Positions 38,880 to 53,237 of a DNA stretch of 64,000 bases are shown piece by piece. The stretch lies in assembly GCF_009914755.1 (NCBI RefSeq), contig NC_060936.1. One strand, given 5' to 3'. Source of the DNA: the human T2T-CHM13v2.0 reference genome, Homo sapiens. Numbering within the stretch: position 1 is the stretch's first letter; every line of letters starts with the position of its first letter. A model generated the notes under the pieces. That model did no database searches. It was given only the letters and a program-made list of their open reading frames with translations, and was not told where the DNA came from. A program made the translations under genes and the position numbers.

Positions 38880-39200
38880 CAGAACAAATTACTCCAGCAT
38901 CTGATCTTCGGAAGCATGTTCGCTTTGCTTTTCCATCATATGTGCAGTCCCAGAGAGCTGACTCATTCCCAGTGCAAGATATGCTGTTTATCCAAATGTC
39001 TCTAGCTTCATTACTAGGTTTAGCACGACGACTGCCAAAGACGCTGAACGGACATCCTAGCTGCTTACAAACCACAAGGGCTTGTTCATTCTTCCAGTTC
39101 TGGTCACATATTGTCCACCACTGTTCATGAATTCTCACCTCTACTCTCCCTGAACAATTGTTACTTCCATCTGCTAGTCGCAGTTCCAAATCTGCTCCAT
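38880..39200 (-). CDS. CD163L1: CD163L1 exon, SRCR domain 4 (DGADLELRLADG...DAGVICS), 321 nt
   Basis: cctag acceptor, G|gtaagg donor, 8-Cys SRCR, phase 1-1. Confidence 0.97.
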
Positions 39201-41876: not shown

Positions 41877-42197
41877 CTGAGCAGATCACAGACACATCGT
41901 TTTGATGAAGACAGTCAAAATTGACGGTTCCGGAATGTCTGCAGTCCCAAAGAAAAGATTCATTACCGGAGCAGGAGACACCATCAAGCCATACAACATC
42001 AGACCCTGACTGCAAATGAGGCAAGCCAGCGAAGTGAAGTGCGGTTCCACATCCCAACTGCTTGCATACGACATCAGCTGCAGCATTGTTCCACTTATGG
42101 TGGCATACGGTCCCCCACCTTCCTTGGATTTTCAGCTCTACTCTCCCCATACAGCGGTTAGTTCCACCTACAAGCCTTAGTTCAAGATCACTACTAT
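41877..42197 (-). CDS. CD163L1: CD163L1 exon, SRCR domain 3 (DSSDLELRLVGG...DVSVICS), 321 nt
   Basis: cag acceptor at 42200-42198, G|gtaaga donor at 41876; 8-Cys group-B SRCR pattern; matches recalled CD163L1 protein. Confidence 0.97.
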
Positions 42198-45032: not shown

Positions 45033-45670
45033 TCGTAAAGGGTACATTTCGAGAAATAAGGACTAGAACAGACTAGCCTTTGTAGAAACTGAAGCCAAGA
45101 TTTAATCTCTAACTGTGACTGAATTAAGATTATCTGAGATTGCCTTCTGCCAAAAACATAAGATTATACTACACCTCCAATTGGCTTTATAATTTTTCAT
45201 GAATTGTGCATCTTACTCTCTCAGAAATAAAAAAACTATGGAGAAGATAACATGATTAAAAGCCAAGAGGAAAAAAAGACACAATCAACAGGAGGTGTGA
45301 ATTACCAGAAATAGACTGTAAATTACCATCCTTAATATATGTACGACAAAATAAAAGGCAAGACTGAAAATTTTGGCAGAAAAATAAATATAAAAACTAT
45401 AAAAATAAACCAAATGAAGGTTCTAGAACTGAAAAATACAGTAATTAAATTAATAACACAATAGATTAACAAAATTCATCAAAGAAAAAAGTATTAGCAT
45501 ACTGTAAAATACAAGCATAAAAAGACAAAATCACAGGAAATGCAGGAAAAAAAGGTTTCAAGAGGAACAAAGTAGGGAATAAGAAGACAAATATTTGTGT
45601 AATTGGAGTTCCAGAGAGTAAAAAGATAGAGAATTCAGCAGAAGAAATATTTGAAAATATAACAGTTAAA

Positions 45671-46229
<559 letters not shown>

Positions 46230-46642
46230 TTAAGAATTTGCCAAAAATTGAGACTCTTCAAATATAGCCAAAATTCAAGCATTGCCATAAACTACAAGTG
46301 CAGGAACACAAAGAAAATGACATCTAAGCACATAATGGTAAAATAGCTGGAAACTAAAGAGAGAAAAAAGAAAACAAAACTTTAAAAGCACACAGAGACT
46401 AAGGTGGATGTCCTTCAGAGAAAATTAAATAAAAACAACAATTCTCCCTTTTCAAGAGAAAAGGGAAAGTCATAAAACATGGAACAATACCTTCCAGACA
46501 TTAAAAGGAAAACAGAATAGCCTAAAATTCTGAGATAATGCTTAAAGATGATATTGCTCGTTTCCTTTTTAAAGAATAAATAATTATGAAAAATTTGAAC
46601 ATAGATTTTCTTTTTAAAATTTCCATTTGTTCAAAGTCTTAC

Positions 46643-47375
46643 TAAAACAAATAACTCCAGTACCCAAATTATGATTACCATTATTATTCCCCTGATATGG
46701 TTTGGATGTTTTGTCCCCTCCGAATCTGAGGTTGAAATGTGATTCCCCAGTATTCAAGGTGGGGCCTGTGGGAGGTGTTTTGGTCATGGAGGAGGATCTC
46801 TCATGAATGGCTTTGTGCCCTCCCTGCAGTAATGAGTTCATAGGGGAGCTGGTTGTTTAGAGAACCTGGCACCTGGCACCTCCCCCACCACCTTGCTCCC
46901 TTCTCTCTTGCTTCCTCTTTCCATGTGATATGCTGACTTCCCCTTGGCCTTCTGCCATGATTGTAAGGTTTCTGAGCCCCTCACCAGAAGCAGTTGCTGG
47001 TTCCATGATTCATGTACAGCCTGCAGAACCATGAACCAAACAAACCACTTTTCTTTATAAATTATCCAGTCTCCGGTATTCCTTCATAGCAATGCAAATG
47101 GACTAACACATCCCCCAACCATAGTGTTTGCATACCCATAGAGCTGATTTATCTCCAAAGCAGGATGTATGAAACATCTATATATTCTTGGATTAAGCAC
47201 TAACATTAGGAGGAAAATTTGTGTTGACTACAAAGTGTTAACCCAGTTAATTACAAACAACTATTAGCATCCCAGTTCTGATGACACACAGTTCCCCACT
47301 GATCCTGGACATTGACATTTCCCACTTCTTCACATTGGTTACTTCCATTCACTATCTTTAACAATTCCTTCCTAT
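46643..47375 (-). pseudogene. Decayed SRCR pseudo-exon in the intron upstream of SRCR3, interrupted by an MST LTR
   Basis: Hand translation: DRKELLKIVNGSNQCEEVGNVNVQDQWGTVCHQNWDA / IVVCN*LG*HFVVNTNFPPNVSA*SKNI*MFHTSCFGDKSALWVCKHYGWG [LTR] NNNGNHNLGTGVICF; ttttgaag acceptor and gtaaga donor retained. Confidence 0.9.
46693..47110. mobile_element. MST-type MaLR solo LTR inserted into the SRCR pseudo-exon
   Basis: tgatatggtttggatg ... gactaacaca; perfect 5-bp TSD tcccc at 46688-46692 and 47111-47115. Confidence 0.93.
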
Positions 47376-48009
47376 CTTCAAAATAGACAAAAGTCTGGGT
47401 CATAAGTGAGACCAAGGAGAAAAAGTCTTCCTGGATTTGAAAACATCATTTATCTACTTATTTCTATAGGACATTCCTTTTTGAATCAACGGACTCATGG
47501 CTTTAATGCTAAAATATTGTCCTCACAATTCATTTTACTAGGAACAATTGTTCATTTCTAGAACAAAAGGAATTCAATATATGATGTATTCCCTCACTTA
47601 AGGTCACATAAATCTTTTGGCTGAAACTTTTAAGATTTGTTGTTTATTAGAGTAAAATAGACTCCCAGGAAATGGGTTTGAAGATGTATCTGTGGGACAC
47701 TCTCATATGCTGTATTACGCAGGACACCAAAATTACATAAGCAATTAAAGAATCTGGTCAAAAGAGAAAAACAGAATTGAAACAATCTTCCCATAAAGAA
47801 CCATTTGAAATGGAACATAAAATTTCCATGGAATAAAAGTTGACAATTTGTATATGCATAATAAAAACATTTTAGAAACATGCAAATTCTAATCACAATG
47901 ATATGGTTGTAATCTTAAAGGAGAGGATAAATCATAGATAAAAAATATTGCACACTATCTGGAGAGCATAAAAAGAGGAAGATCACAGGAAAAAAAAAAT
48001 GTGTATTAC

Positions 48010-53237
<5,228 letters not shown>

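What the first reader, a model, noticed from the sequence alone, without database searches (positions are those of the whole stretch)
46643..47375. Fossil 13th SRCR exon of CD163L1, split by an MST LTR
Seen: minus-strand sequence between the SRCR2 and SRCR3 exons encodes a recognisable SRCR domain (IVNGSNQC, QWGTVCHQNW, VVCN*LG*, I*M, SCFGDKSALWVCKHYGWG, GVICF) with phase-1 acceptor and gtaaga donor still present. Removing the LTR (46693-47110) and one tcccc TSD rejoins GWG-NNN in frame and gives a 310-nt exon versus 321 nt for its neighbours, with one frameshift, four stops and loss of Cys4 and Cys7. It is invisible in the ORF track except for the last few codons. Inference: ancestral CD163L1 had at least one more SRCR domain; HF after the Cys4 position and QNW resemble SRCR4 (CPF, DQNW). 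Loss was tolerated because exons are symmetric, and the LTR gives a minimum age for inactivation.
Basis: partly seen in the sequence, partly recalled or inferred. Interest (0 to 1): 0.82.

Follow-up and report, generated by a model that had tools for sequence, protein, structure and literature searches.

The report
Dead SRCR exon inside CD163L1 intron
An intron of the human macrophage receptor gene CD163L1 holds the decayed remains of one more domain-coding exon, split by an old retroviral LTR, so the receptor's ancestor probably had thirteen domains, not twelve.

Summary
On the minus strand, 47375-47111 plus 46692-46643 is a decayed SRCR-domain exon in the 25.5-kb intron between the SRCR2 and SRCR3 exons of CD163L1. 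A 418-bp dispersed LTR (46693-47110) with a 5-bp TCCCC target duplication splits it.

A DNA profile of the 21 real CD163L1 and CD163 SRCR exons finds the 10 annotated exons in the window and exactly one more hit, this one (E 1.3e-17). With the LTR and one duplication copy removed, the alignment runs ungapped across the junction (71.6 bits).

The exon has four stops and one 8-nt frameshifting deletion, lacks Cys4 and Cys7, and keeps its AG acceptor and gtaaga donor. No RefSeq model uses it.

Trees place it, with moderate support, beside CD163 SRCR1 and CD163L1 SRCR4.

Its substitution pattern (synonymous 0.66, non-synonymous 0.20 at conserved codons) argues that it was a constrained coding exon for a long time, not a dead-on-arrival copy.

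I could not test orthologues in other mammals. The "ancestral 13th domain" reading is therefore likely but unproven, and "MST" is unverified below the MaLR-like level. This is an ordinary kind of event (exon death plus transposon insertion), and I found no report of it in print.

The parts
47111..47375 (-). 5' part (265 nt) of the fossil SRCR exon. It runs from the phase-1 start to the GWG codons and includes one TCCCC/GGGGA duplication copy at 47111-47115.
   Evidence: nhmmer E 1.3e-17, profile positions 22-288; tblastn with CD163 SRCR1 E 1.3e-11; Pfam SRCR E 6.8e-4 on 47254-47373; translations.
46643..46692 (-). 3' part (50 nt) of the fossil exon, coding ...NNNGNHNLGTGVICF. It includes the second duplication copy at 46688-46692. 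Cys7 is replaced by GGT at 46677-46679.
   Evidence: After excision the profile alignment continues ungapped to position 317 of 321, and the score rises from 57.8 to 71.6 bits.
46693..47110 (+). Solo LTR of 418 bp, a dispersed repeat with TG...CA ends. Its MaLR (MST/THE1-like) type, and its sense on the + strand (antisense to the gene), are recalled and not tested.
   Evidence: 6790 first-look candidates; 39 scored non-self copies at 73-79% identity, all spanning at least 19-395 of 418; junctions and TCCCC duplication.
47376..47377 (-). AG of the former acceptor, preceded by the pyrimidine-rich ttttgtctattttga.
   Evidence: Splice context printed beside the 12 real exons.
46637..46642 (-). Former donor gtaaga. 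The 10-nt context gtaagacttt compares with SRCR3 gtaagactta and SRCR5 gtaagacttg.
47262..47263 (-). Site of the 8-nt frameshifting deletion relative to the real exons, between the WDAN and VVC codons.
   Evidence: nhmmer and MAFFT alignments.
47178..47249 (-). Stretch holding the four in-frame stops: TAA 47247-47249, TAA 47238-47240 (Cys4 position), TAA 47193-47195 and TAG 47178-47180 (Trp of IW).

Best explanation
This is a dead exon. It once coded an SRCR domain of the CD163 SRCR1 / CD163L1 SRCR4 type, which Herzig et al. 2010 call type 'h'. It lay between today's SRCR2 and SRCR3 of CD163L1.

Inferred history:
1. The N-terminal extension of CD163L1 grew by exon duplication. SRCR3 is the sister of SRCR5, and the fossil belongs with SRCR4. 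Fossil plus SRCR3 therefore looks like a two-exon copy of SRCR4 plus SRCR5.
2. The fossil was kept under purifying selection as a coding exon for a long time.
3. It then dropped out of the mRNA. This cost no reading frame, because every SRCR exon is a multiple of 3 in phase 1-1.
4. The cause was either the LTR insertion itself or an earlier point lesion.
5. Since then it has decayed neutrally by about 0.15-0.25 substitutions per site, picking up four stops, an 8-nt deletion and the loss of two cysteines.

Today it is inert intron DNA.

Shown here: homology, lesions, LTR split, absence from gene models, the selection signature. Inferred: inclusion in an ancestral 13-domain protein, the two-exon duplication, the order of lesions.
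For: Homology and collinearity.

Lesions and splice sites.

LTR and duplication.

Not in any of the 13 RefSeq/Gnomon CD163L1 transcript models, and no other annotated feature at 45500-48500 apart from masked repeats.

Single copy in the genome: only a self-match.

Placement:
- DNA tree: inside a 94/93 clade with CD163L1 SRCR1, 2, 4 and 6 and CD163 SRCR1 and 3.
- Protein trees: with CD163 SRCR1 (86/71 and 83/63), and with SRCR4 added (83/81 and 80/80).
- SRCR3 pairs with SRCR5 at 90/87, and at 92/92 on DNA.

Neutral decay:
- It differs at 13 of 60 bases that are invariant in the 11 N-terminal-type exons, and at 4 of 27 bases invariant in all 21 exons.
- Real exons left out in turn differ at 1-9 of 61-69 and 0-3 of 27-30.
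- GC is 36%, against 43-62% in real exons.

Past constraint:
- At the 35 codons identical in CD163 SRCR1 and CD163L1 SRCR4, the fossil differs at 14.3 of 21.7 synonymous sites but only 16.7 of 83.3 non-synonymous sites, stops counted (Fisher p 8.4e-5).
- 0 of 2000 neutral simulations reached so low a ratio.
- In a dead-on-arrival model copied from the SRCR4 lineage, both values were met in 0-3 of 300 runs at each of four ages.
Against: - No orthologue from any other species could be examined, so an intact or transcribed 13th exon has never been seen.
- The Pfam match is below the curated cut-off (20.4 against 26.1 bits), and 2 of 3 pieces gave nothing.
- The genome-wide PF00530 scan missed the site.
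- The type assignment is not significant. AU p values: 0.27 as sister of SRCR4 alone, 0.08 with the SRCR1/2/6 plus CD163 SRCR3 group, 0.08 with the SRCR3/5 plus CD163 SRCR2 group, 0.20 with SRCR2, 0.09 with SRCR3, 0.07 with the SRCR7 plus CD163 SRCR4 group.
- The ratio of the fossil's end branch at codon positions 1+2 to position 3 is 0.70. That lies inside the range of real exons (0.46-0.87), so this measure does not separate the models.
- The selection test assumes that codons shared by two saturated paralogues (dS about 1) are ancestral. It ignores gene conversion, and its simulations are simple.
- No intron similarity supports the two-exon duplication: 0 hits in 5 comparisons.
Confidence: 0.75

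Rival explanations
1. Dead-on-arrival duplicate. A tandem exon duplication inside CD163L1 made a copy that was never spliced into a working mRNA, and it decayed neutrally from birth.
For: - No transcript model and no orthologue evidence for use.
- The position-partitioned branch ratio of 0.70 is not clearly below 1 once the real exons' range of 0.46-0.87 is considered.
- The tree placement is weak.
Against: - Synonymous sites are near saturation against every extant exon: third-position difference 0.51-0.62 and NG86 dS at least 1.
- Conserved codons show only 0.20 non-synonymous difference, and invariant bases only 13 of 60.
- No single neutral age fits both. The joint fit was met in 0-3 of 300 simulations at x = 0.15, 0.23, 0.35 and 0.50.
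- There is no close parent anywhere in the genome.
Confidence: 0.15
2. It is still in use: a poison exon or regulatory element whose retained splice sites are occasionally recognised, so that CD163L1 output is tuned by inclusion of a stop-bearing 733-nt exon.
For: An AG acceptor with a pyrimidine tract and a strong gtaaga donor are both still present.
Against: - It is used in 0 of 13 RefSeq/Gnomon models, and no functional element is annotated there.
- Decay at otherwise invariant bases, and a GC content that has fallen to 36%, look neutral.
- With the LTR, the exon would be 733 nt long.
- Splice sites can survive by chance: they are only 2 + 6 bases at about 0.2 substitutions per site.
Confidence: 0.05
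3. Relic of a different, lost gene. The exon belonged to a neighbouring CD163/WC1-family gene whose remains were swallowed by the long CD163L1 intron, so it was never part of CD163L1.
For: - WC1 genes are reported absent from primates but present near CD163 in other mammals (PMC12235456, passages).
- A second, weaker SRCR-like relic lies 3' of CD163L1.
Against: - Only one fossil exon lies in this intron and in the whole 64-kb window, on the gene's strand and in the gene's phase.
- Its type (with CD163 SRCR1 and CD163L1 SRCR4) is one that Herzig et al. tie to CD163A/CD163b and not to WC1 (PMC2906472, section 8).
- Its position next to SRCR3, the sister of SRCR5, fits an internal duplication.
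Confidence: 0.05

Closest known systems
CD163 SRCR1 exon and CD163L1 SRCR4 exon (domain type 'h' of Herzig et al. 2010)
   Same: - One-domain exon in phase 1-1 with the same length class.
- 45-46% amino-acid identity to CD163 SRCR1 over 98 columns, and 56% DNA identity.
- Best tree neighbours.
- Shared features such as IW-M..SC, SALW.C and GWG.
   Different: It carries four stops, an 8-nt deletion and an LTR insertion. Cys4 and Cys7 are gone, and it is 310 nt instead of 321-324 nt. It is not in any transcript.
Pseudoexons (exon death) in genes built of symmetric domain exons
   Same: It is a homologue of the gene's own coding exons, lying in an intron with disabling lesions. Its loss leaves the frame intact because the flanking phases match. 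Other SRCR matches with internal stops exist in the genome, for example in the DMBT1 region on chromosome 10.
   Different: Here the exon is physically split by a transposon. It also keeps both splice signals, and its past constraint can be read from its substitutions.
Solo LTRs of ERVL-MaLR (MST/THE1 group) in human introns
   Same: About 420 bp, TG...CA ends, a 5-bp target duplication and thousands of dispersed copies. The search listing of PMC1794541 says intronic LTRs are biased to the antisense orientation (abstract start only). PMC10735291 describes all MST and THE1 members as primate-specific (passages).
   Different: Subfamily and orientation were not tested against a repeat library. 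The MaLR assignment rests on recall. This copy landed in an exon, not in plain intron.
Loss of WC1 and erosion of the CD163 family in primates
   Same: Lineage-specific loss of SRCR coding capacity in the same gene cluster (PMC2906472 and PMC12235456, passages).
   Different: Here a single internal domain of a retained gene was lost, not a whole gene.

Membership tests
SRCR domain, group B (Pfam PF00530) | Profile match above the curated cut-off | tested here: not met
   The best stop-free piece scores 20.4 bits (E 6.8e-4) against a cut-off of 26.1, and 2 of 3 pieces gave no match. The SRCR3 control scores 106.8 bits. The genome-wide six-frame scan did not list the site. This is expected for a broken exon, and homology is shown at the DNA level instead.
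SRCR domain, group B (Pfam PF00530) | Eight conserved cysteines | tested here: not met
   6 of 8 are kept. Cys4 is a TAA stop and Cys7 is Gly. It is a relic, not an intact member.
CD163-family SRCR exon | Significant DNA similarity, collinear over the whole exon, to the family's exons | tested here: met
   nhmmer E 1.3e-17 as it stands and 1.6e-21 (71.6 bits, positions 23-317 of 321) after excision; tblastn hits from 16 of 21 domains.
CD163-family SRCR exon | One domain per exon, phase 1-1, on the gene's strand, with splice signals | tested here: met
   for the AG acceptor, the gtaaga donor and the phase; for the gene's strand.
Domain type 'h' (CD163 SRCR1 / CD163L1 SRCR4) | Forms a clade with those domains to the exclusion of other types | tested here: inconclusive
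   The clade is recovered at 83/81 and 80/80, but AU tests do not reject five other placements (p 0.07-0.20).
Unitary pseudoexon (once coding, then lost) | Signature of past purifying selection on its own lineage | tested here: met
   pS 0.66 against pN 0.20 at 35 conserved codons, Fisher p 8.4e-5; 0 of 2000 neutral runs; 0-3 of 300 dead-on-arrival runs. The result depends on the model.
Unitary pseudoexon (once coding, then lost) | Intact, spliced orthologous exon in another species | not testable with these tools
   No other eukaryote genome is on hand. The protein word search is limited to 0.55-1.75 times the query length. With the 179-aa SRCR2 open frame it returned 51 short SRCR proteins, mostly fish and bird sequences, and no mammalian CD163L1 N-terminal fragment.
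Unitary pseudoexon (once coding, then lost) | Absent from current transcripts | tested here: met
   Used in 0 of 13 RefSeq/Gnomon models. RNA-seq could not be consulted.
ERVL-MaLR solo LTR (MST) | Dispersed multicopy element with full-length copies, TG...CA ends and a 5-bp target duplication | tested here: met
ERVL-MaLR solo LTR (MST) | Best match to an MST subfamily model in a repeat library | not testable with these tools
   No Dfam or Repbase is on hand. The assignment to MaLR/MST is recalled from the element's ends and size.

The most novel reading that the evidence does not exclude
The exon was still coding when the LTR landed in it in the primate stem. CD163L1 of non-primate mammals (horse, pig and others), and perhaps of some strepsirrhines, would then still make a 13-domain receptor. 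In that case a transposon insertion removed one whole ligand-binding-type domain from a macrophage receptor in our lineage. The fossil would also reveal the two-exon (h-i) duplication that built the so far unclassified N-terminal half of CD163L1.
Probability: 0.25. Interest if true: 0.55.

Novelty: new member of a known kind. Interest (0 to 1): 0.4.

Why it matters
- It gives a concrete, datable example of how a receptor made of repeated domains loses a domain without breaking its reading frame.
- It helps to order the N-terminal six domains of CD163L1, which Herzig et al. 2010 could not classify. On my trees the order reads: SRCR1 and SRCR2 near SRCR6, then fossil plus SRCR3 as a copy of SRCR4 plus SRCR5.
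- For annotation, it is a site where exon-finding or homology-based gene models in other primates might wrongly add or drop a domain.
- No effect on present human biology is shown.

Tried and rejected
- Genome-wide six-frame PF00530 scan. It did not list the site, so it gives no support. A DNA profile of the real exons was needed instead.
- Pfam on three stop-free pieces. Only the first piece matched, below the cut-off.
- Cross-species check through the protein word search. I used the 179-aa open frame around the SRCR2 exon, scoring region 38-143. It gave 51 hits among 53 candidates, with 50 further candidates of unnamed source left out by the tool. All hits were short SRCR proteins, mostly from fish and birds, plus one human CD163L1 fragment of another domain.
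- Residual intron similarity between the fossil-to-SRCR3 interval (and the stretch upstream of the fossil) and the SRCR3-4, 4-5 and 5-6 introns, after masking 20,591 annotated repeat bases. There were 0 hits at E <= 0.01 in 5 comparisons.
- Partitioned branch lengths. They did not discriminate between the models.
- Pairwise dS. It is saturated, so it is no use for dating.
- Literature searches. I found no paper mentioning a 13th SRCR domain, a pseudoexon or an exon remnant in CD163L1. Supplements were closed, so I could not see the additional files of Herzig 2010, which may hold domain tables.
- The weak second hit 3' of the gene was only partly followed.

Full report
**Where it lies.** The window is chr12:7378001-7442000 of T2T-CHM13, inside CD163L1 on the minus strand. 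In the RefSeq table the SRCR3 exon is window 41877-42197. The SRCR2 and SRCR1 exons lie beyond the window, at 67732-68052 and 68690-69010. The finding (46643-47375) therefore sits in the 25.5-kb intron between SRCR2 and SRCR3. None of the 13 RefSeq/Gnomon transcript models of the gene uses it. Nothing else is annotated at 45500-48500 except masked repeats.

**The observation.**
- One frame reads RKELLKIVNGSNQCEEVGNVNVQDQWGTVCHQNWDAN.
- After a shift, a second frame reads VVCN*LG*HFVVNTNFPPNVSA*SKNI*MFHTSCFGDKSALWVCKHYGWG.
- A foreign stretch follows, and then GNNNGNHNLGTGVICF.
- The exon begins just after an AG in phase 1 and ends one base into a codon before gtaagacttt. These contexts look like those of the 12 real exons: SRCR3 has gtaagactta and SRCR5 has gtaagacttg.

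**The foreign stretch.** 46693-47110 has TG...CA ends and is flanked by TCCCC on both sides. One look at the genome gave 6790 first-look candidates, of which 40 were scored. The 39 non-self copies lie on many chromosomes, are 73-79% identical and all span at least positions 19-395 of 418. It is a complete solo LTR of an old dispersed family. I recall its ends and size as typical of ERVL-MaLR (the MST/THE1 group), with its sense on the + strand and so antisense to the gene. No repeat library was on hand to test this or to name a subfamily.

**Is it more than chance?** I built a DNA profile from the 12 CD163L1 and 9 CD163 SRCR exons, without the fossil.
- On the whole window, both strands, it found 11 hits: the 10 annotated exons and 47357-47099 (minus) at E 1.3e-17 and 57.8 bits.
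- Over 164 kb covering both genes it found the 21 real exons, this hit (E 3.3e-17) and one weak hit elsewhere.
- With the LTR and one TCCCC copy left out in a script, the piece is 310 nt. The profile alignment runs without a gap across the junction to position 317 of 321, and the score rises to 71.6 bits. The split and the rejoining are therefore real.
- tblastn with the 21 real domain peptides gave HSPs here for 16 of 21 at E <= 0.01. The best was CD163 SRCR1 at 1.3e-11. No HSP fell outside the annotated exons and this site.
- Pfam SRCR matched the first stop-free piece (E 6.8e-4, 20.4 bits, below the 26.1 cut-off) and not the other two pieces.
- The genome-wide six-frame PF00530 scan found 107 matches, including all 12 CD163L1 exons, but not this site.
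- At the DNA level the fossil has no other copy in the genome.

**Lesions.** Relative to the real exons it lacks one codon near the 5' end and 8 nt at 47263/47262, which is the frameshift. It carries four stops (three TAA and one TAG). One stop is at the Cys4 position and one is at the Trp of IW. Gly stands at Cys7.

**What kind of domain?** By exon sizes and trees, CD163L1 SRCR4-12 run parallel to CD163 SRCR1-9.
- In the DNA tree the fossil falls in a 94/93 clade with CD163L1 SRCR1, 2, 4 and 6 and CD163 SRCR1 and 3.
- In protein trees it joins CD163 SRCR1 (86/71 and 83/63), and then CD163L1 SRCR4 (83/81 and 80/80).
- SRCR3 pairs with SRCR5 (90/87 on protein, 92/92 on DNA). SRCR1, 2 and 6 group near CD163 SRCR3.
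- AU tests do not reject other placements (p 0.07-0.27), so the type is the best estimate and not a proven one.
- Herzig et al. 2010 left the first six domains of human CD163b undesignated (PMC2906472: abstract, passages and section 8 read).
- On my trees, fossil plus SRCR3 looks like a copy of SRCR4 plus SRCR5. No intron similarity survives to confirm this.

**Was it ever used?**
- All paralogue pairs are saturated at synonymous sites (dS about 1-2), and so is the fossil against each of them.
- Yet at bases invariant in the 11 N-terminal-type exons it differs at only 13 of 60, and at 4 of 27 bases invariant in all 21. Real exons left out in turn differ at 1-9 of 61-69 and 0-3 of 27-30.
- At the 35 codons identical in CD163 SRCR1 and CD163L1 SRCR4, the fossil has changed 14.3 of 21.7 synonymous sites but 16.7 of 83.3 non-synonymous sites, stops included (Fisher p 8.4e-5).
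- 0 of 2000 neutral simulations gave a ratio as low.
- In a model where the fossil is copied from the SRCR4 lineage and is neutral from birth, both values were met in 0, 2, 3 and 0 of 300 runs at ages 0.15, 0.23, 0.35 and 0.50.
- This argues that its lineage was under purifying selection for most of its history, so it was a coding exon.
- The argument is model-bound: it rests on saturated sites, possible gene conversion and simple simulations. A partition of branch lengths did not help, because the fossil's ratio of 0.70 lies within the real exons' 0.46-0.87.

**Dating (inference).**
- Post-death decay is about 0.15-0.25 substitutions per site.
- The LTR's 21-27% difference from its nearest copies implies roughly 0.12-0.16 per lineage.
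- The two ranges overlap. I cannot say whether the insertion killed the exon or landed in an exon that was already dead.
- PMC10735291 (passages) reports all MST and THE1 members as primate-specific. [quoted passage not shown] If the element is an MST, non-primates lack it.

**Comparison with other species.** This is the decisive test, and I could not run it. No other eukaryote genome is available here. The length-bound protein search returned only short SRCR proteins, mostly from fish and birds. A review gives 12 SRCR domains for human CD163-L1 (PMC8721182, passage). Seven literature searches found no mention of a 13th domain or a pseudoexon.

**Verdict.** The feature is real: a fossil SRCR exon of CD163L1 split by an old solo LTR. 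It was most likely once the coding exon of a 13th domain, of the CD163 SRCR1 / CD163L1 SRCR4 type, and it is now inert. The kind of event is well known, and this instance appears to be unreported. Interest is moderate.

Noticed in passing
L013:5444-5674 (chr12:7363444-7363674, minus strand), outside the window and about 4.6 kb 3' of the CD163L1 mRNA end: A second, much weaker SRCR-like relic. nhmmer gave E 2.4e-4 and 7.3e-5 (15.5 bits). tblastn gave E 1.3e-4 with CD163L1 SRCR9 and 0.022 with CD163 SRCR6. The translation reads ...RCEG*FKIHILGLGNLCDS...GAANIL*LQ, which resembles the start of those domains. It may be a relic of a lost neighbouring family gene, or it may be chance.
   Followed up: partly
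window 38880-39200 (CD163L1 SRCR4 exon): SRCR4 has a long branch (0.75-0.90 in the protein trees). It has lost the GWG motif (DGKAKRTC) and has WW in place of WG. It looks like the fastest-changing of the N-terminal domains.
   Followed up: no
G000:C1:157066639-157066929 (+), G000:C10:123464474-123464767, 123499604-123499873 and 123639400-123639690 (+): Other full-length PF00530 matches with one or two internal stops. They lie near the CD5L region on chromosome 1 and in the DMBT1 region on chromosome 10, so broken SRCR exons are not rare in the human genome.
   Followed up: no
L002:4563-5293 (CD163 SRCR5 and SRCR6 exons, chr12:7501062-7501790): The 99-nt intron between these two exons is open in frame, giving a 257-aa open frame across both domains.
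   Followed up: no
window 47009-47113: The reference's repeat mask, as listed for stretches of 100 bases or more, covers only about a quarter of the 418-bp LTR. A mask-based view would understate the insertion.
   Followed up: no
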